DNA from: Dictyostelium discoideum
Taxonomy: Eukaryota
Assembly: GCA_000004695.1 (NCBI GenBank)
Contig: CM000153.2
Coordinates: 3,200,001-3,264,000 of the forward strand
Reading direction: 5' to 3'
DNA: 64,000 nt
The notes beneath the pieces were generated by a model. It was not told where the DNA came from and did no database searches. It saw only the letters and a list, made by a program, of their open reading frames with translations. How positions within the stretch are numbered: the first letter of the stretch is position 1; the number at the start of each line of letters is the position of its first letter. Below are positions 24,754 to 33,762 of the stretch, in pieces. Both the position numbers and the translations under genes were made by a program.

Positions 24754-26495
24754 ATGTCCACGGAAAATAATAATAATAATAACAATGGAATTATTGGTAG
24801 TCCATTAAGTGGTAATAGTGTTTTAAGTGGTAGTGGATCAGTTTTAGATAGTGATAAAATTCAAAAGATTGTAAATAACTATCAAAAAGTAAAGAATCAA
24901 AATGCTATACTAAAGAAAGCATTATTACAAGAACAACAAAAAACAAATGACTTGGAAAAAGGATTAAAGGAAAAAGAACAAGCATTAACAACATCACTAC
25001 AAGAACATGATGTATTAGATTTTAATAATCAAAGATTAACAAAAAGAATTCAATTAATGCAAGATCATATGAATGAGGTAAGTTAAAAAAAAAAAAAAAA
25101 AGTAAAAAAATATATATATCCAAAATATAAAATAATTAATTTAATTTAATTTATTTTTAATTTAATTTAATTTTTTTTTTTTTTTTTTTTAAGAAAAAAG
25201 AAAGTGGTGGACAATGGTTTGGTGGTAAGAATCAAAAATTAGAAATTCAAAAAAAAGAAGAAGAAATTAATATATTAAGAAGTGAATTACAAGAAAAGAT
25301 TGATGATAATGAAGGATTACATAGTGTAAATATTGAAAAAGAGAATGCATATAAATCATTGGAACAAGATTTGAAATCTTCAATAACAGAGAAAGAAAGA
25401 GAGATTCAAGAGAAACAAGAGAAAATCAATGTTTTATTGATTGAACAAAAAGAGAGTGAAAAGAAACTTCATGATCAAACCAAAGGTTTACGTGATGCAA
25501 TATCATTGTTGGAGATTAATTTCAAACAGGTCTATAGTTCAACCAAACAAAGAGATGATTCATTCATAAGGTTGAGTGAATTGATTCAAACTGGTTTAAA
25601 TTCAAATTTACCATTGATTTCATTCGATTATCCATTAGAGAATATTACGCCATCCAATGAAAGATTTCCAATTGAAGATATCATTGAAACAATTGAGAAA
25701 TCAAATAGCAGCAATAATAATAATACAATTATAAACATTGATTCAAATACAATTAAAACCATATCAGATCGTAATTCATGGATACCACCAATTAAATCAA
25801 TCATTGGTAGTGTTCAACAATTCCTTTCCTATCATTTGGAACAAGTTTCACAATTGATTTCATCTCATCGTTCATCAATGTCACAATTGATTGAAACTAA
25901 TCAACAGGAATTCAAAAGATTAAATCAACAACTTAACGATCTACTTTTACAAAAGGAGGAATTGGAATTTAGACTCAATACCGTTGGTGAACAATTACTA
26001 AAAAAGGAGTTTGAAATCTCTGAACATTCAGCTAGCATTAAAACTATAAATGAAACCATTTCAAAACTTCAAGATTCAAATCAACAATTGGATTCCCAAT
26101 CATTACGTGATAAAGAATCCTATAATCAAATGAAAAAACAATTTGAATCTCAAATTAAATCCATAAAATCAGATTTTGAACTAGAAATGAAACAAGCAAA
26201 AGATCAAAATCAAGCACTCTTAAAACATCAAAAAGGTTTATTAAATTCAAAAATTAATGAAAAAGATTTAATCATTTCAAATTTAGAGAAGAAATTATCT
26301 TTAATTCAAAAATCTTTATCAAATAATTCTTCACCACAAATATCAATACAACAACAACAACAACAATCACCAATACTTTTAGATTTAAATAATAATTATA
26401 ATAATGATGATAACAATACAAATACAAACACAAATACAAATTCAATTAGTAACGATTTAATAGATTTATCATTCCTTGAAAGTAATGGTTTATCA

Positions 26496-26584
<89 letters not shown>

Positions 26585-26838
26585 TAATTTTAGCGAACAA
26601 AATAGTAATAATAATAATAGTAGTAATAGTTTAATTAATCTTGACGATGATATAATATTGGATACGCAAATTGATGAAGAAAAACAAATTAAACAAGAAA
26701 ATAATAATAACAATAATAGTGGTAATAATAGTTTAGAAAATAGTGTTATCTTAACAACTCCAAGACCAGTAGTTAGTGATAGATTTAAATTATCAGTTTT
26801 AGATGAAACAGGTGATGAATCTGATGTAAGTTTAAATT

Positions 26839-26881
<43 letters not shown>

Positions 26882-27388
26882 TTTTAATTAATTACTAACC
26901 ATTTTTTATTTTTAAAAAAAAAGTCATTAAACTTTTCAATGACAGATAAAGAAAGAGAGAATGAAATGAAAGTTTATTATGAAAATAAGATTACACAATT
27001 ATTGAATAAGATATCAAATATTGATGCTAAAGCATTAAGATACTATGATCAATATCAACAATTAATGAAAAAAGGTGGTGCTAGTCAAAGTGAATTAGAT
27101 TCTACCATTTTGGAATTAAAGAATTGTAAAGTTGAATTAAAGAATACCAAAGATGAATTAGAGGTTACTCGTGTAAACTACGATCAACAAATGAGATATC
27201 TCACTGAACAATTCATTTCTTTGAATGAGAATGTAAGCTCACTCGATAGTCAACTCATTAAAATTAAACAATATAAAGTTTCTTGTGGTAAATGTAAACA
27301 TTGGAATCAATTGGAATTCATTTTCTCTCCAAATAATCAAGGTTTATATTGTTCAAAAGGTCATCCAATTTTAACAATTCAACCTTAG
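24754..27388 (+). CDS. Protein phosphatase 1 regulatory subunit 21 (PPP1R21, KLRAQ + TTKRSYEDQ domains) homologue, 3 exons: 24754-25077, 25194-26825, 26924-27388
   Basis: N-terminus YQKVKNQNAILKKALLQEQQKTNDLEKGLKEKEQALTTSLQEHDVLDFNNQRLTKRIQLMQD aligns to human PPP1R21 KLRAQ. Exon 3 (ELEVTRVNYDQQMRYLTEQFISLNENVS) aligns to the TTKRSYEDQ domain. GTAAGT donors at 25078 and 26826; T-rich ...AAG and AAAAAG acceptors. Confidence 0.65.
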
Positions 27389-27918
27389 CTCTATTTATTT
27401 ATTAATTATTAATAATTAATAATTATTAATAATACCACTATTATAAATTAATAAAAATTATTATTAACTAATAATAAAAATAGTAATAATTTATTATTAA
27501 CAAAAATAATACCTTTACATTTTATTTTACGTGGTTAAAACAATAGTTTTTTTTTTTTTTTTATTATAAATTTTTTAATTTAATATAAGGTGCATAGGTA
27601 ATTGATTAAATAATTTTACTTTCCAAGTATTTTTATTATTTATTTCAGAAAACTTTCTTTTTCTTTTTTTTTTTCTTTTTTTTTTTAAAAAAATTTTAAG
27701 GGGGGGGATAAAATCTTATTTTACAATCTATAAAAATTGTAATGGGAATTAAGATTTTAATACAAATTAATAAATCTTAATTGCTAATAAATTATTTTTT
27801 GGATGAAAAAAAAAAAAGAAAAAAAAAAAAAAAAAGGGAAAAAAAAAAAATGTATAAAAGAAAAAAATTAATGGACATTTAAAATAAAAATATATTCAAA
27901 TACAATCTTTTAAAAATC

Positions 27919-28219
27919 ATGACTCTCTTTTGTAGGTTTACTAAATTAAAAAAAAGTTTTTTTTTTTCATAATAATAATTAACAATTTGTATTTTTCTTT
28001 ATAATTATAAAAATAGCATCATTATCATCATTAAGCACTGGTTCTTTGAAATCAAGTGTTTCTTCAATTGAAACTGGTAGTTCAAGTGGTTCATTTGGTT
28101 CAAATGAAACATCGGGATGGGGTCACCATCATTGGAATAGTTGTCATCCATGTCCACCACCACGTCCAATTTGTCGTCCATGTCCACCATGTCGTCCAGT
28201 ACCAAGATGTCATCATTAA
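27919..28219 (+). CDS. HssA/2C/7E-like small Ser-rich / Cys-Pro-rich protein (paralog 1), exons 27919-27931 and 28017-28219
   Basis: 13-nt first exon ATGACTCTCTTTT, GTAGGT donor, AAATAG acceptor. Product [71 protein letters not shown]. The N-terminus resembles the Dictyostelium HssA-family start (MTLFSSISS...). Confidence 0.6.
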
Positions 28220-28499
28220 AGTTTAATTTTAAATAAAATTAATAAATAGAACTTTAAAATGTTTGGAATTTAAATAAATAATTTTTCTTTTTTTAAAAAA
28301 TATATTCAAACACATTGAATTTGATTTTGGAAAATTTACTACCAATAAAACTAATGATAATAAAATTCTTTTATTAACAAAATTTATTATTAAACAGAAA
28401 TATAGAATGTATTACTGATGCTCAAAAAACTGATGATTTAAAATATGTTAGAGAATGGGTTTATTCCTTTGTGAATCAATGTCCAATACATAATCCAAT

Positions 28500-28544
<45 letters not shown>

Positions 28545-28707
28545 CCTTGTCCTAATTTGGGATGTGCCGTTGTGACCACTAAATCCATTTTCAATTTATT
28601 TCAACAAAGTTTGCAGGGTAAATTAAAAAATATAATATTTAAAAAAATAAAATTGCACAGGAAATTTATTTTTAATGAAATTTTTTTATTTTTATCAAAA
28701 ATCTATT

Positions 28708-28993
28708 TTAATATTTATAATGGCATCTTGGTTCTGGACGGCATGGTGGGCATGGACGACAAATTGGACGTGGTGGTGGACATGGATGACAACTATTCCA
28801 ATGGTGGTTACCCCATCCAGATGTTTCATTTGAACCAAATGAACCACTTGAACTACCAGTTTCAATTGAAGAAACACTTGATTTCAAAGAACCAGTGCTT
28901 AATGATGATAATGATGCTAATTTTTATAAATTATTTATTAATAAATTAAAATTTTTTTTTTTTTTAGGAAAAAAACTTACAAAATAGGGTCAT
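28708..28993 (-). CDS. HssA/2C/7E-like small Cys-Pro-rich protein (paralog 2, inverted), exons 28993-28981 and 28916-28708
   Basis: Minus-strand ATGACCCTATTTT + GTAAGT donor + ...AATTAG acceptor, giving [73 protein letters not shown]. Coding sequence about 95% identical to paralog 1. Confidence 0.6.
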
Positions 28994-29421
28994 TTTAAAA
29001 TTTTAATAGTTTCTTGTTTAAAAATTAGAGTTTGATTTAATATTTTTTTTTTCTAATTTGGTTACAATTTATAGTTTTTTTTTTTCTAAAAAAAAGAATA
29101 AAAAAACAAATAATTTTTTAATTTTATTTTAAAATCATACTTTTTGTTTTTTCATTTCTATTTTTTTTTATATCAAAAAACTTAAACTCCCCCCCCATTA
29201 TATTTTTCTATTTGACTTGTTATATTATTTATTCATAAATGATTACTTGTTATAGTAATTATTATTAAAAATGGGGCCTTTGGATTTTGAATTATCAAGA
29301 ATTCTTAAAATAAAAAAGTCTTTAAAAAAAAAAAAAAAAAAAAATTATTCAAAAAATTAAAAAACTATAAAAACAAAAAATCAATTTTTAAAATATTAAT
29401 TATAAATCAAAAAATAAAAAT

Positions 29422-29901
29422 ATGAGTATTTTCAGTAAGTATAATTTTTTTTAGAAATATTGTAAAACTCAGTAAAATTTGTCATAAATATTTTTAAAAA
29501 TAATAATAAATTATTAATTTCAATTATTCCTACAAAATAAATGTTTTAATAATTAAACCACTTTGTTGATCCCAAACATGGTGAATTTTTTAATTTCGAA
29601 ATTTTTGCTCAAATTTTCCTGGATTTTACAATATTTAAATAAATAAAATAAACTAAATTTAAACCCTTTTTTTAAATAAATATAGGTTCATTATCATCAT
29701 TATCCACTGGTTCTTTGAAATCAAGTGTTTCATCAATTGAAAACGGTAGCTCAAGTGGTTCATTTGGTTCAAATGAAACATCTGGATGGGGTCAACACCA
29801 CTGGAATAGTTGTCGTCCATGTCCACCACCACGTCCAATTTGTCGTCCATGTCCACCACCATGTCATCCAAAACCAAGATGTCATTATTAAAAATTTAAT
29901 A
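29422..29901 (+). CDS. HssA/2C/7E-like small Cys-Pro-rich protein (paralog 3), exons 29422-29434 and 29685-29901
   Basis: ATGAGTATTTTCA + GTAAGT donor, ATAG acceptor. Product [72 protein letters not shown]. Confidence 0.6.
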
Positions 29902-30058
29902 AGGTTTTAAAAATAAATTTCATCTTTAAAAAAAAAGATATTTTTAGAAAATTGGAAAAGTAGTATTAAAAATTTTTATTGTGTTTGTTAGAGAAAAAAA
30001 AAATAGTATAAAATACTAATAACCAAACAAAAAACAAATGTTTTTAAATATATTTAAA

Positions 30059-32803
30059 CTATTTTGAATTAAAGTCATAGTAAGAAACTTCACCATCAGA
30101 AAAACCAGCTAACATTGTTTCATCATCTATTGATAAACATTCTACGGGTGATAAATTATTAATGGTAGTTAAAAGGTTTGGTTCATTACTACCCTCTAAA
30201 TTCCATAAGCAAATTGAATCTTCATCCCCTGTACACATACGTAAATTATTATAGATACTTATTGCTTTAACCTTTGAGGAATGAGATTTTATATTGTGGA
30301 TGGCAGAACTTGGATTTCTGATATCCCACATTCTAATGGTCTTATCGCTTGAACCTGTAATCAATTGATAATCATTTAAAAAGTCGAGACAATTAACTGA
30401 ACCTTTGTGACCATTGAGAACCAATTCAGTTTTATTTGAGTCTATATCCCATAGCTTAACAGTTTTATCAGTACATGCAATCATACAAAAGTTTTCAAAC
30501 CTTCCAATTTTACAATGATTAATTTTGGTGTTTTCAATTTCTATCATTTGCAATTCCTGTTCAGTTTCGCTATCATATAGCTTGACGGTATTACTTTCAT
30601 AAGAGTAAATATCTCTTTTCATGAAAATGAAACCATTAGAAACGTAGAGAAAACGTTGTTCTTTTTCAATTTCTTTTGTAGCGATATTGTAATGTTGAAT
30701 TGCACCATTTGAACAACCCAATCTAATGATACCATGCATAAATAAACAATATGGGAATATATCTGTTGAAAGTTTAGTAAAATTATCCTTTTCAAATGAA
30801 ATAACTGAACTTGCACCACATCTAGTTGTACTTTCACATTGTTTTGTTGCAATATTCCAAGATTTAAATTCTTTATCCTTTGAACCTGTGAATATTTGAT
30901 TTGGTGCCATTTGTAAACAACTAATCTTTCCTTTATGTCCTCTTAAATTACTAACTTTCCCATTACCAGCTCTCCAATGTCTATTAATTGTTTCTTTTTC
31001 TCTAAACATATTCAACCAATAATGTTCATTCTTTTGAATTTGTTCTCTATTATTATATTTATTATTATTTTCAAGTAGCATATCTGGTAATTGTGGAATT
31101 GGTGGTGGTGGTGGTGGTAGTAGTGGTGGCGATGGTGAAGAAGAAGATGAAGATGCTGATAATGGTGAAGAATTATTTGATTTTTTTTTACTATGATCAA
31201 AAGTTAAATCCAATAATTGTTTCTTTTCAGTACCTAAATTTATATCTTCAATTGAACTCCATTTAAATAAAGAATCTGAACTATTTTTTGTAAACTCTCT
31301 ATTATAAAGATCTCTCCAAATATTATCATCCAAACAAATCCTATTAAAATATTTACAAGTTCTTGACATTCTAATTAAATGAGTTGCATCCATTAATGTG
31401 AAAATATATTGAATCATTTCATATGGTAACAAATCAAATAAAGAACAAGTTTTTAAATTATGACTTTCCAAATAACGTGGTGATTTCTTTTTTGGTGGTT
31501 TTCTTAAATGTAATCCACTTGATATTAATAATAAAAATGGTTTTCTTGTTATATATGATTCCCAATTTTCTGAAAATCTAAGATATTCTTGATCATTATT
31601 ATTATTAATATCTAATTGTTGATTATTATCTATTAAAGCTGAATCATTTGAAAAAGTGGAAGAGGATGAAGAAGATGTTGGTGAAGAGAGTTGTTGAGGT
31701 GGTGAAAATGTCAAAGATGATGAAGTGCTACTACTACTACTACTACTACCACCACTACCACCACCACTTGAAAAACAAAACTGAGTTGAAGGAATTGAAA
31801 TTGAAGTTGAATTAATTCCATTATCTCTAAATTTTCTTTTTTTTTCGTTCTCATGATTATTTGAATTTGGTGGTGAATTTATAATTAAAGATGGTTTAGA
31901 ATGACGAATTTGAATATTTGAAAAAATTTCGGCCAATTCTGAGAATTTATCAATACCTTCCCAATGTGGAAACTCTTGTTGTTTTCTTTTATGTAAATAA
32001 AATGGATTAATTGAATAATATTTAATCATTTCGACAGTTGCTCTAGTTTTTTCTGATATAACATATAGAATTTGTTTCTTTGGATAAATTTTATATGTTG
32101 ATGGTGGTAAATACATTCTAAACTTTAATATATATCTTATAATACAACCCCTTTCTTGTGGAATTATGTAATAAGCTGATGGAGAATACCAAAATCCCGT
32201 CTTCACTATTGTAGATGGTTTCAACAATGACCTATACCCAAGGAATATTATACCCTTTTGAAAATAATTAACCTGTTTAACCAATACAGCCGACAAAACA
32301 TCCTTTGGTGCTAAAACCGACCGAAAACTCATTCTCTCCAATGAAGTTACCTGATCTAACTTTTTCAATGTTTTCATACCACATGTCCATTGATCGATTT
32401 TACATGAATACTCTGAAAATATATAAGAAAATATCACTTCTGCAGATGCATCTATAAATGAACTACCACTACATGCGAAATCTAATGAATTTTCATCATA
32501 ATCTCTATAATAGAATGTATAATCATTAAACTTTCTAAAACAATTCCAACCGGTTTCAACTGGATTTACCTCTAATTCACCAACAGTTTTACTAGTTTCT
32601 TTAAACATAAAAGTTGGTGTTTTATCAACATCATATAACTCTTCATCTACATCTAAAAATTCAAATTCTTCTGATAATTGTGGTAATAAAATTTTCTTTC
32701 CATCTTTTTCATTTAAATTTTCATTTGAATTTGAATTTGTAATACTATCACTATTATTATTATTATTTTCATTACTATTACTATTTTTAATATTTTGTTG
32801 TTG

Positions 32804-32901
<98 letters not shown>

Positions 32902-33762
32902 GATTTGGGTTAAATAAATCTGGTGTTTTAAATTTTTTAAAATTATTTTCAATTTCTTTTTTATAATTTTTTTTAATATATTTTATAAGATTTGGTAAAG
33001 TATGAGTAATTTGAATACCAGTATTTCTATAGATCCTTTTCAAATCTACAGAATTAATTCTGAGGTATGGTGCAATGGTTAAATCATTAATTTGTACTAC
33101 CAATGTAATTCTAGTTTTATTTGGTGAAATTTGAAGGAATTCCCATCCTGATGGTTTCATATATGTTGGACTAGGTATTGATTCATGATGAATTGATCTA
33201 ATTACTACCCATGCTGATTTATTTTCAAAATCAACTGAAAAATTTCTTAAAAAAACAAAGTCTCTTGGAGCTCCTCCAAGTGGTGATCCAAATGAATAAT
33301 AATCAACTGAATTGCAACTGTCTAATTGTTCAATCTTTTTTGACTTTTAAATATGGTGTGAAAAAAATTATTAAAAAAAAATATTAAAAAAAAAAAAAAA
33401 AAAAAAAAAGGTTATTTTTAGTTTTTAGTTTTTTGATTTTGTTTTTTTTTTTTGATTTTTTTTGATTTTTAATAATTTATAAAAAAATAATAATAAAATT
33501 ATAAGTTTACCTCAATACAAAGTTCATCCCATATTTGTTGTAAATTTGCATTGTATAAAACATTTAATGGAATTTCTGGTGAAGTATTAATTTCACCAAT
33601 ACATTTAAAAATTAAACCTTCTTCAGTTGGATTTTCTATGGATTGAACTGAACATTCTTCATATTCACCCAAATCTGTCCAAGGCATAGTGGTATAATTA
33701 ATTAAATATTTAACTTCATCGTACACACTTTTAACAATATCCATACCATTTACATATTGCAT
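30059..33762 (-). CDS. START-domain + F-box + WD40-repeat protein, 2 exons: 33762-33511 and 33343-30059
   Basis: Exon 1 plus the start of exon 2 show a START-like lipid-binding signature (...GLIFKCIGEINTSPEIPLNVLYN...WDELCIE | SKKIEQLDSCNSVDYYSFGSPLGGAPRDFVFLRNFSVDFENKSAWVVIRSIHH). F-box at LFDLLPYEMIQYIFTLMDATHLIRMSRTCKYFNRICLDDNIWRDLY. C-terminal WD40 repeats (GHKGKISCL..., WDI/WNL motifs). GTAAAC donor, TTTAAAAG acceptor, phase 0. Poly-N of about 40 residues. Confidence 0.75.

What the first reader, a model, noticed from the sequence alone, without database searches (positions are those of the whole stretch)
27919..29901. Cluster of three near-identical small Cys/Pro/His-rich genes (HssA/2C/7E-like) in direct-inverted-direct arrangement
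Three about 70-aa genes sit in less than 2 kb, oriented +, - and +. Each has a 13-nt first exon (ATGACTCTCTTTT / ATGACCCTATTTT / ATGAGTATTTTCA) and an SS(L)SS...[16 protein letters not shown] middle. The C-terminus is an unusual tandem C-[RH]-P-C-P-P-(P)-R/C motif ending in CHH/CHY. Paralogs 1 and 2 are convergent and about 95% identical, which implies recent duplication/inversion or gene conversion. The ORF track only shows them as mis-framed fragments. The His- and Cys-rich tail ([25 protein letters not shown]) looks metal-binding or antimicrobial-peptide-like rather than the G/C-rich tail of canonical HssA proteins.
Basis: partly seen in the sequence, partly recalled or inferred. Interest (0 to 1): 0.55.

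Follow-up and report, generated by a model that had tools for sequence, protein, structure and literature searches.

The report
Known cup-cell small-peptide gene trio
These are three already annotated Dictyostelium discoideum genes from the "beiE" branch of the hssA/2C/7E small-protein family, switched on at huge levels only in the cup cells of the finished fruiting body, and what their Cys/Pro/His-rich peptides do is still unknown.

Summary
Three spliced genes lie at 27919-28219 (+), 28708-28993 (-) and 29422-29891 (+). Each has a 13-nt exon-1 reading frame, a GT-AG intron and an exon 2 of about 205 nt. They encode peptides of 71, 73 and 72 aa.

They are not new. The products match D. discoideum AX4 proteins exactly: DDB_G0285441/DDB_G0288841, DDB_G0285737/DDB_G0293890 and DDB_G0285443. 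One 97%-identical paralogue, DDB_G0276687, is the published cup-cell marker beiE, described as "hssA/7E/2C related".

Published RNA-seq gives these three gene IDs 20,748, 23,317 and 34,338 TPM in cup cells. They are near zero before 24 h. The clade sums to about 31% of cup TPM.

Only the N-terminal 36 residues resemble Pfam PF05710, and the score is just under threshold. The Cys/Pro/His tail is specific to the clade, and I found no homologue outside D. discoideum.

New here:
- Genes 1 and 2 form an old 1.8-kb convergent-pair unit that is also present at another locus.
- The window's only two G/C runs of 6 or more lie about 200-230 nt upstream of the three start codons.
- Synonymous changes outnumber nonsynonymous ones, so the protein is under selection.

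Function is unknown. My best guess is a bulk thiol cross-linking peptide.

The parts
27919..27931 (+). Gene 1 exon 1: 13-nt reading frame ATGACTCTCTTTT (M T L F + 1 nt). Product = DDB_G0285441 (identical to DDB_G0288841).
   Evidence: exact protein match.
27932..28016 (+). Gene 1 intron, 85 nt, GTAGGT...ATAG, phase 1.
   Evidence: The L001 paralogue has the same 85-nt intron.
28017..28219 (+). Gene 1 exon 2 including the TAA stop. The full product is 71 aa.
28708..28916 (-). Gene 2 exon 2 including the stop. The full product is 73 aa and is identical to DDB_G0285737/DDB_G0293890.
28917..28980 (-). Gene 2 intron, 64 nt, GTAAGT...TTAG.
28981..28993 (-). Gene 2 exon 1: ATGACCCTATTTT on the minus strand.
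29422..29434 (+). Gene 3 exon 1: ATGAGTATTTTCA (M S I F + 1 nt). Product = DDB_G0285443.
29435..29685 (+). Gene 3 intron, 251 nt, GTAAGT...ATAG. It is three to four times longer than in the six other copies examined (64-90 nt).
   Evidence: No Rfam match in it.
29686..29891 (+). Gene 3 exon 2 including the stop. The full product is 72 aa.
27700..27707 (+). G8 box, 219 nt upstream of the gene 1 ATG. Candidate promoter element.
   Evidence: It is one of only two runs of 6 or more G or C in the 64-kb window. A G6-G7 run sits at -192 to -202 in all four paralogue promoters in L001-L003.
29189..29196 (-). G8 box (C8 on the + strand) in the middle of the 428-nt divergent gene 2/gene 3 intergenic region. 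It lies 203 nt upstream of the gene 2 ATG and 233 nt upstream of the gene 3 ATG.
27547..29322 (.). Ancestral 'convergent pair' duplication unit: gene 1 promoter, gene 1, spacer, gene 2 and gene 2 promoter.
   Evidence: Collinear blastn match, 84.7% over 1848 nt, to a second convergent pair at L003 5654-7418.
26011..28419 (.). Younger segmental duplication (about 96% identity) shared with the DDB_G0288841 locus (L001, next to prfB). It covers the 3' part of the upstream gene, gene 1 and 200 nt downstream of gene 1.
   Evidence: Neighbour identity.
28563..29344 (.). Younger duplication (93.7% over 796 nt, inverted) shared with locus L002. It covers gene 2 with its promoter, G box and 3' flank.

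Best explanation
SHOWN. The region holds three functional, already annotated members of the D. discoideum-specific 'beiE' clade of the hssA/2C/7E (sigN) small-protein family: DDB_G0285441, a copy encoding the DDB_G0285737/DDB_G0293890 protein, and DDB_G0285443.

Each gene has a 13-nt exon-1 reading frame, one phase-1 GT-AG intron and an exon 2 of about 205 nt. Genes 1 and 2 form an old 1.8-kb convergent-pair unit. Gene 3 is transcribed divergently from gene 2.

Published RNA-seq shows that these gene IDs are silent until the very end of culmination. They are then among the most abundant transcripts of cup cells, the wall-less amoeboid cells above and below the spore mass.

The products are basic peptides of about 7.6-7.9 kDa, predicted to be disordered, with no signal-peptide-like hydrophobic core. 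They have two parts:
- A 40-aa Ser/Gly-rich N-terminal module shared with the hssA family and nearly invariant among paralogues.
- A clade-specific tail, WG[22 protein letters not shown](P)-C-x-P-x-PR-C-H-[HY], with six invariant Cys (two C-x-P-C motifs), about 10 Pro and 4-6 His.

Codon substitution patterns show selection on the amino-acid sequence.

INFERRED: regulation. A G6-8 box about 200 nt upstream of each ATG is a cis element for the common late cup expression. The paralogue beiE responds to high c-di-GMP.

INFERRED: function (my best guess, about 0.3). These are bulk, stoichiometric thiol peptides, analogous to the animal cornified-envelope precursors SPRR and LCE. They would accumulate in the cytosol of terminally differentiated cup cells. 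As those cells age and dry, the rigid Pro-spaced cysteines would form intermolecular disulfide bridges, possibly His/Cys-metal bridges too. That would toughen or seal the cups that hold and cover the spore mass.

The confidence given below refers to the identity, gene structure and expression parts, not to the biochemical mechanism.
For: Gene models and exact matches to deposited proteins.

Family hallmark (13-nt exon 1 in 89 of 96 sigN-family genes). Kin et al. describe the cup-specific hssA-like genes as 'around 213 bp, 13 bp first exon, about 200 bp second exon' forming 'a separate tight clade'. Pfam PF05710 hit on residues 1-37.

beiE = DDB_G0276687, 'hssA/7E/2C related'. [quoted passage not shown]

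Expression of the exact gene IDs (cup/stalk/spore/vegetative TPM):
- DDB_G0285441: 20748/368/115/2.
- DDB_G0285443: 34338/546/191/4.
- DDB_G0285737: 23317/536/92/3.
- Time course about 0 until 24 h; prestalk and prespore about 0.
- Ten paralogues sum to about 311,700 TPM.

Purifying selection:
- dN/dS 0.05-0.55.
- At least 16 synonymous versus 7 nonsynonymous codon changes in codons 1-60 across 7 copies, binomial p = 3.7e-6.
- Ser codons switch between AGY and TCN at codons 5 and 11.
- All length differences are in frame.

Protein properties: disorder from AlphaFold2 (pLDDT 58.7, pTM 0.16, no secondary structure). No hydrophobic h-region, pI 8.7-8.9, Cys at 47, 50, 57, 60, 63 and 69.

G box. 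Duplication units. Regulation of beiE and cup genes by c-di-GMP, 8Br-cAMP and DIF-1.
Against: Family membership is formally borderline. The Pfam score is under the gathering cut-off and covers only the N-terminal part of the model. The genes are labelled 'unknown', not 'hssA/2C/7E family protein', in the Kin et al. tables. None of the three is in the 96-gene sigN list.

I could not see read-level splice evidence for these three genes.

TPM is inflated for very short transcripts, and reads cannot be assigned cleanly among near-identical paralogues. Per-gene values and the '31%' figure are therefore rough.

No protein-level detection was found.

For the cross-linking mechanism there is no direct evidence at all. 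It rests on composition, abundance, timing and analogy. Two paralogues carry the GO term 'extracellular region' of unknown provenance, which sits awkwardly with a cytosolic model.

Deleting other subsets of the wider family gave no phenotype. Function may therefore be subtle or redundant.
Confidence: 0.85

Rival explanations
1. Metallothionein-like cytosolic metal (Zn/Cu) buffer or store. The six Cys and 4-6 His of the tail chelate metal ions in cup cells, either to protect the adjacent spores from metal or to supply them with it.
For: The tail has 10-12 potential ligands in 31-33 residues, including two C-x-x-C motifs, an HHHW or xHHW block and a C-terminal CH[HY]. The peptide is small, lacks a signal peptide and is predicted disordered, like apo-metallothioneins. 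The genes are multi-copy and very highly expressed.
Against: Cys makes up only about 8% of the protein and about 19% of the tail, well below classical metallothioneins. The Pro-rich spacers are stiff. Expression is tied to cell type and stage, and no metal induction is known. No similarity to any solved metal-binding protein was found. The N-terminal Ser-rich half, which has no ligands, is the most strongly conserved part.
Confidence: 0.25
2. Antimicrobial or defence peptide. A cationic Pro/Arg/Cys-rich peptide is released from cup cells, by an unconventional route or by lysis, into the sorus to protect the spores from bacteria or fungi.
For: The tail contains PRP and RPxP motifs and carries net positive charge (pI 8.7-8.9). 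Expression is massive, occurs exactly when and where the spore mass matures, and is species-specific with fast turnover by duplication. Two paralogues are listed under GO 'extracellular region'.
Against: There is no signal peptide or hydrophobic core, and Forbes et al. list 'none' under domains for beiE. The charge is modest. The tail varies more than the N-terminal module, but dN/dS is still below 1, so there is no sign of the positive selection typical of many defence peptides.
Confidence: 0.15
3. The transcripts act as RNA rather than through the peptide. This was reported for hssA itself, where a frame-shifted construct still suppressed the mutant phenotype.
For: [quoted passage not shown] Transcript levels are extreme.
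Against: Variable sites are concentrated at third codon positions (15, versus 4 and 6 at positions 1 and 2). Synonymous changes exceed nonsynonymous ones at p = 3.7e-6. Ser is kept through AGY/TCN switches that need two nucleotide changes. Every indel keeps the reading frame. No Rfam family matches.
Confidence: 0.05
4. They are mis-annotated ORFs or decaying pseudogene copies of no function.
For: The proteins are labelled 'hypothetical' or 'putative uncharacterized'. One paralogue, DDB_G0276685, has only 82 TPM in cup cells.
Against: All seven copies examined have intact frames, conserved splice sites, purifying selection and very high cell-type-specific expression.
Confidence: 0.02

Closest known systems
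beiE (DDB_G0276687) and the late cup-specific 'hssA-like' clade of D. discoideum (Kin et al. 2018, PMC6198379; Forbes et al. 2022, PMC9117722)
   Same: Protein identity is 89-100% within one 90% cluster of ten sequences. The 13-nt exon 1 and about 200-nt exon 2 are the same. The three window gene IDs appear in the same supplementary table with the same 24-h, cup-only, more than 20,000 TPM profile. They are members of this clade.
   Different: Nothing essential. Only beiE has been tested with a promoter-lacZ reporter. Gene 3 and DDB_G0285569 form a subtype (MSIF start, N24, Q41), and gene 3 has a 251-nt intron.
hssA/2C/7E (sigN) family, Pfam PF05710 'Coiled' / HssA/B-related (Vicente et al. 2008, PMC2257962)
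   Same: [quoted passage not shown] The N-terminal half is Ser-rich. The genes are developmentally regulated and sit in clusters built from oppositely oriented gene pairs.
   Different: The Pfam match is below the gathering score and limited to model positions 1-36 of 90. The C-terminal half is Pro/Cys/His/Arg-rich rather than Gly/Ser/Cys-rich. Expression is in cup cells at 24 h, not in prestalk cells from 10-12 h. The three genes are absent from the 96-gene list. Only sigN180 (chr 5, 72 aa, 12% identity to SigN1) may belong to this clade.
Animal cornified-envelope precursors (SPRR, LCE) and the IgG hinge (CPPCP / CPRCP). This is an analogy drawn from my own knowledge, not homology.
   Same: Both are small Pro/Cys-rich proteins without signal peptides. 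Both are encoded by clustered, recently duplicated genes with a tiny first exon. Both are expressed massively at terminal differentiation of a protective cell layer. In both, Cys flanked by Pro sits in stiff polyproline stretches suited to intermolecular disulfides.
   Different: There is no sequence homology: PDB and 1.84 billion representative proteins gave nothing. The peptides have almost no Gln or Lys for transglutaminase cross-linking. No experimental evidence of cross-linking exists.
Metallothioneins and C-x-x-C metal or redox motifs (analogy)
   Same: The size is about 7 kDa. Both are Cys-rich with C-x-x-C motifs, disordered in the apo form, cytosolic and multi-copy.
   Different: Cys density is lower. 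His, Trp and Pro are abundant. A 40-aa Ser-rich module is attached. No metal data exist.

Membership tests
hssA/2C/7E (sigN) family | [quoted passage not shown] | tested here: met
   All three genes have 13-nt exon-1 frames and GT-AG introns of 85, 64 and 251 nt. The spliced frames give exact database proteins.
hssA/2C/7E (sigN) family | Small protein (under 120 aa) found only in Dictyostelia. | tested here: met
   The products are 71-73 aa. The only hits among 5.8 billion and 1.84 billion proteins are D. discoideum paralogues.
hssA/2C/7E (sigN) family | Sequence match to Pfam PF05710 at or above the gathering score (21.4 bits). | tested here: not met
   Scores are 20.8, 19.9 and 19.6 bits (E 7e-4 to 1.7e-3). 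Only residues 1-37 align, to model positions 1-36 of 90. This is a near miss confined to the N-terminus.
hssA/2C/7E (sigN) family | Ser/Gly/Cys-rich composition with a Gly/Cys-rich C-terminal half. | tested here: not met
   The N-terminal 40 aa are Ser/Gly-rich (16-17 Ser, 6 Gly). The tail has 10-11 Pro, 6 Cys, 4-6 His and 4 Arg, with no Gly after G40.
hssA/2C/7E (sigN) family | Developmentally regulated expression during multicellular development. | tested here: met
   From the literature, for the exact gene IDs: expression only at 24 h and in cup cells. The cell type and timing differ from the prestalk sigN groups.
beiE clade (late cup-specific hssA-like genes) | Close sequence relationship to DDB_G0276687 (beiE). 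| tested here: met
   The three products fall in the same 90%-identity cluster as beiE. Within it, pairwise identity to gene 1 is 89-100%, and 62 columns are invariant.
beiE clade (late cup-specific hssA-like genes) | Very high expression restricted to cup cells of the finished fruiting body. | tested here: met
   Kin et al. Additional file 5 gives cup TPM of 20,748, 34,338 and 23,317, against stalk 368-546, spore 92-191 and vegetative 2-4. These are published data that I did not re-analyse. Reads cannot be assigned cleanly among the near-identical paralogues.
Classical secreted peptide (signal-peptide dependent) | N-terminal signal peptide with a hydrophobic core of about 7-15 residues. | tested here: not met
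   The longest hydrophobic run in the first 30 residues is 2. The maximum 9-residue Kyte-Doolittle mean is 1.1-1.2. This was a simple calculation, not SignalP. Forbes et al. list 'none' for beiE.
Metallothionein-like metal-binding peptide | Stoichiometric binding of Zn, Cu or Cd by clustered Cys. | not testable with these tools
   Only the motif content could be described (six Cys, two C-x-x-C motifs, 4-6 His). The tail has no match in the PDB.

The most novel reading that the evidence does not exclude
The clade-specific Cys/Pro/His tail turns a family-typical Ser-rich module into a species-specific bulk 'thiol peptide'. This peptide dominates the cup-cell transcriptome. It would give D. discoideum cups a cornification-like, disulfide- or metal-bridged or bactericidal protective layer around the spore mass. 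That would be a convergent counterpart of animal SPRR/LCE proteins, and a concrete late function for the recently evolved cup cell type.
Probability: 0.25. Interest if true: 0.6.

Novelty: already known. Interest (0 to 1): 0.3.

Why it matters
The genes themselves are not a discovery. They are annotated, their clade has been described as the most highly expressed cup-specific gene set, and one member (beiE) is in use as a cup marker.

What remains open is why a cell type that arose only in group 4 Dictyostelia devotes so much of its late transcriptome to about ten near-identical 7-kDa peptides found only in D. discoideum. Published data put the share at around 30% of TPM.

Three results from this analysis give concrete handles for experiments on cup-cell function:
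- The tail has six invariant Cys in Pro-spaced C-x-P-C motifs plus a His cluster.
- Selection acts at the protein level.
- A G box sits about 200 nt upstream of every copy examined.

If no phenotype or activity is found, the region is simply one more cluster of a large, redundant small-protein family.

Tried and rejected
**Homologues outside the clade.**
- A word-indexed search of 5.8 billion proteins found only the clade's own cluster.
- An exhaustive HMMER profile search of 1.84 billion representatives found only the clade itself and one spurious repeat protein, P0011.
- A search with the N-terminal 40 aa alone returned no candidates.
No authentic HssA or SigN sequence could be fetched for a direct pairwise alignment.

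**Other paralogue loci.** The AX4 paralogues DDB_G0285567, DDB_G0276685 and DDB_G0288167 are not in the positional index. Only three loci from other D. discoideum assemblies were available. I therefore could not test two ideas: that sigN180 is DDB_G0288167, and that DDB_G0285567/DDB_G0285569 form a gene 2/gene 3-type divergent pair.

**Frameshift origin of the tail.** The +2 frame of the tail reads as a Ser/Thr/Met-rich peptide ([15 protein letters not shown]...), so I asked whether the tail arose from hssA-like sequence by frameshift. Alternative-frame peptides gave no Pfam hit. The idea has no support but is not strictly excluded.

**Structure.** AlphaFold2 gave a low-confidence, structure-less model, so I ran no fold search. 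The tail has no PDB sequence match.

**RNA elements.** The region and the long gene 3 intron gave no Rfam match, and the window has no tRNA.

**More family members in the window.** Weak tblastn hits at about 9.4, 17.7, 20.2 and 21.7 kb lie within long Ser-rich ORFs. A structure-based scan for 13-nt first exons found only the known genes.

**Flank comparison.** My first global comparison of flanks against shuffled sequence suggested no similarity outside exon 2. The more sensitive blastn showed this was too pessimistic. Similarity between genes 1 and 2 extends about 55 nt into the intron and about 27 nt into the 3' UTR, and the whole pair is conserved as a unit elsewhere.

**Protein-level evidence.** A 2026 life-cycle proteome paper held only STRING text-mining links to beiE, and its files were truncated. 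The secretome paper that may underlie the GO 'extracellular region' term (PMC2926150) is not held.

**Metallothionein in Dictyostelium.** The papers I checked do not say whether D. discoideum has any.

**cdl1a paper.** It does not mention beiE, hssA or a binding motif.
Full report
**What is in the sequence.** The window has 22.9% G+C, and its genes match Dictyostelium discoideum AX4 proteins. At the reported coordinates there are three small two-exon genes.
- Gene 1 (+): exon 1 27919-27931 (ATGACTCTCTTTT), an 85-nt GT-AG intron, exon 2 28017-28219, 71 aa.
- Gene 2 (-): exon 1 28993-28981 (ATGACCCTATTTT), a 64-nt intron, exon 2 28916-28708, 73 aa.
- Gene 3 (+): exon 1 29422-29434 (ATGAGTATTTTCA), a 251-nt intron, exon 2 29686-29891, 72 aa.

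The products are:
- [71 protein letters not shown]
- the same with N41, E66 and a ...CHYKY end
- [72 protein letters not shown]

Gene 2 ends CHYKY. The mechanical ORF list shows exon 2 in frame but truncated, not mis-framed.

**They are annotated genes.** All three spliced translations are exact, full-length matches to deposited proteins.
- Gene 1 = DDB_G0285441, identical to DDB_G0288841.
- Gene 2 = DDB_G0285737, identical to DDB_G0293890.
- Gene 3 = DDB_G0285443 (Swiss-Prot Q54N87).

All are named 'hypothetical' or 'putative uncharacterized'. They belong to a single 90%-identity cluster of ten distinct sequences, all from D. discoideum. The other AX4 members are DDB_G0285567, DDB_G0285569, DDB_G0276685, DDB_G0276687, DDB_G0288167 and DDB_G0286675; the tenth sequence (KAM9957282.1) comes from a different D. 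discoideum assembly.

The alignment has 62 invariant columns, including all six Cys, W39, W44, H42 and H43. An exhaustive HMMER profile search of 1.84 billion representative proteins found nothing else except one spurious repeat protein. A 2022 table lists the conservation of the paralogue beiE as 'Ddis' only.

**Relation to the hssA/2C/7E (sigN) family.** Vicente et al. 2008 defined this family of at least 96 small-protein genes. [quoted passage not shown] The three genes have exactly this structure.

Pfam PF05710, the HssA/B-related model, matches residues 1-37 at 19.6-20.8 bits (E about 1e-3). That is just under the gathering score of 21.4, and it covers only model positions 1-36 of 90. So the N-terminal Ser-rich module and the gene architecture are shared with the family. 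The usual Gly/Ser/Cys-rich C-terminal half is replaced by a Pro/Cys/His/Arg-rich tail.

None of the chromosome 4 entries in the 96-gene list has the right size. Only sigN180 (chr 5, 72 aa, 12% identity to SigN1) could be a clade member, possibly DDB_G0288167, and I could not verify that.

**Published expression.** Kin et al. [quoted passage not shown] They describe them as about 213 bp with a 13-bp first exon and an approximately 200-bp second exon, forming a separate tight clade.

Their promoter-lacZ fusion of DDB_G0276687, 'an hssA/7E/2C related gene' later named beiE, stains the upper and lower cup very late. beiE is 97% identical to gene 1.

Their Additional file 5 lists the window's own gene IDs. 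The columns are explained.

| Gene | Cup TPM | Stalk | Spore | Vegetative |
|---|---|---|---|---|
| DDB_G0285441 | 20,748 | 368 | 115 | 2 |
| DDB_G0285443 | 34,338 | 546 | 191 | 4 |
| DDB_G0285737 | 23,317 | 536 | 92 | 3 |

All three have essentially no signal at 0-20 h, signal at 24 h, and none in slug prestalk or prespore cells. Seven further paralogues have 8,757-50,520 cup TPM, and DDB_G0276685 has only 82.

The clade sums to about 311,700 TPM, and the three window genes to about 78,400. Two caveats apply. TPM inflates very short transcripts, and reads cannot be apportioned reliably among near-identical paralogues.

Cup genes, including beiE, are induced by high c-di-GMP and 8Br-cAMP and are antagonised by DIF-1 or cAMP.

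**Duplication anatomy.** Within the window, similarity among the three genes is confined to exon 2 plus a few tens of bases either side.

Comparison with three paralogous loci from other D. discoideum assemblies shows larger units.
- Window 27547-29322 is the whole convergent gene 1/gene 2 pair with both promoters. It is collinear with a second convergent pair (L003 5654-7418) at 84.7% over 1848 nt. The convergent pair is therefore an old unit, not a recent local inversion. [quoted passage not shown]
- Window 26011-28419 covers the 3' part of the upstream gene plus gene 1. It is about 96% identical to the DDB_G0288841 locus (L001, next to prfB).
- Window 28563-29344 covers gene 2 with its promoter. 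It is 93.7% identical, in inverted orientation, to L002.
- The last two homologies end either side of a 43-nt T tract at 28501-28543.
- Gene 3 shares only 29669-29936 with the others. It is transcribed divergently from gene 2 across a 428-nt intergenic region.

**A shared promoter mark.** The 64-kb window contains only two runs of six or more G or C. From base composition I would expect about 0.26 by my own hand calculation.
- G8 at 27700-27707 lies 219 nt upstream of the gene 1 ATG.
- C8 at 29189-29196 lies 203 nt upstream of the gene 2 ATG and 233 nt upstream of the gene 3 ATG.

All four paralogue promoters in L001-L003 carry a G6-G7 run at -192 to -202. G-rich boxes are known Dictyostelium developmental promoter elements, and Vicente et al. 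note GBF-like G/C motifs in sigN promoters. I infer that this box is a cis element for the common late cup expression. That is untested.

**Protein or RNA?** Kin et al. recall that frame-shifted hssA still suppresses its target mutant, which points to an RNA effect for hssA itself. For this clade the substitution pattern argues for a translated, constrained product.
- Pairwise dN/dS is 0.05-0.55.
- In codons 1-60 across seven gene copies there are at least 16 synonymous versus 7 nonsynonymous codon changes (binomial p = 3.7e-6).
- Variable sites by codon position number 4, 6 and 15.
- Ser is maintained through AGY/TCN switches at codons 5 and 11.
- All length variants (PP/PPP/PPPP, the VP deletion, the KY extension) are in frame.
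- The N-terminal 40 aa are the most conserved part, with no nonsynonymous change among five of the seven copies.

**What the peptide looks like.**
- Mass is 7.6-7.9 kDa and pI is 8.7-8.9.
- There is no hydrophobic stretch that could serve as a signal-peptide core.
- AlphaFold2 with the family alignment gives pLDDT 58.7 and pTM 0.16, with no secondary structure. The peptide is probably disordered or extended.
- The tail has six Cys at 47, 50, 57, 60, 63 and 69, spaced C-x2-C-x6-C-x2-C-x2-C-x5-C. It contains two C-x-P-C motifs, about 10 Pro, 4 Arg and 4-6 His.
- The tail has no relative in the PDB.

**Most likely function and rivals.** Function has not been shown for any clade member. Knockouts of other subsets of the wider family gave no phenotype.

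The extreme abundance, the terminal timing, the lack of a signal peptide and the stiff Pro-spaced cysteines suggest a bulk, stoichiometric role. My preferred reading, at about 0.3, is an SPRR/LCE-like thiol cross-linking peptide. It would harden or seal the wall-less cup cells that hold the spore mass as they age and dry. The analogy comes from my own knowledge and is not a homology claim.

Rivals:
- A metallothionein-like Zn/Cu buffer (about 0.25).
- A released Pro/Arg/Cys-rich antimicrobial peptide (about 0.15). Two paralogues carry a GO 'extracellular region' term of unknown provenance.
- An RNA-level function (about 0.05).
- Non-functional copies (about 0.02).

None of the first three can be separated computationally. 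The decisive experiments are listed separately.

**Verdict.** The feature is already known as annotated genes of a published, cup-specific hssA-related clade. The additions from this analysis are the clade-specific tail anatomy, evidence of selection at the protein level, the 1.8-kb convergent-pair duplication unit, and the conserved G box. Interest is modest: it is an unexplained, hugely expressed, species-specific peptide family, but not a new kind of thing.

Noticed in passing
window 26011-28419 versus L001 3514-5501: This is a segmental duplication at about 96% identity. It includes not only gene 1 but also the 3' part of the upstream gene. That gene comprises ORFs 25359-26891 and 26939-27388, and the second has a PPP1R21_C domain. 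The homology stops exactly where the next gene of L001 starts. The window carries about 424 extra low-complexity bases (26628-27052) relative to L001.
   Followed up: partly
window 28501-28543: A 43-nt uninterrupted T tract lies in the gene 1/gene 2 spacer. The homologies to L001 (ending at 28419) and to L002 (starting at 28563) break on either side of it. It may be a recombination or breakpoint hotspot.
   Followed up: no
window 29435-29685: The gene 3 intron is 251 nt, against 64-90 nt in the six other copies examined. Its middle part (about 29540-29640) has a higher G+C content than typical intron sequence. It has no Rfam match and no similarity to the other loci.
   Followed up: partly
window 28557-28949 (+): A 130-aa ORF in the mechanical ORF list lies antisense to gene 2 exon 2. 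It is an artefact of the Pro/Cys codon composition (a W/T/V/D-rich reading), not a gene.
   Followed up: yes
window 30059-33160 (-): The downstream neighbour is a single 1033-aa ORF. It has an F-box (residues 576-620), C-terminal WD40 repeats and a run of Asn about 40 residues long. It is unrelated to the trio.
   Followed up: partly
window 28141-28236 (+), 28715-28792 (-) and 29810-29899 (+): The +2 frame of each Cys/Pro tail is open and reads as a Ser/Thr/Met-rich peptide ([15 protein letters not shown]...). This resembles the family's Ser-rich style. I tested it as a possible frameshift origin of the tail, but it gave no Pfam hit.
   Followed up: yes
L003 6001-6312 (+) and 7103-6805 (-): This convergent pair comes from another D. 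discoideum assembly. Its tails differ from the AX4 paralogues: [13 protein letters not shown] in one gene, and PPPPCRPRCHH with N24 and N46 in the other. Copy-to-copy and strain-to-strain variation is concentrated in the number of Pro residues and in the last 8 residues.
   Followed up: partly
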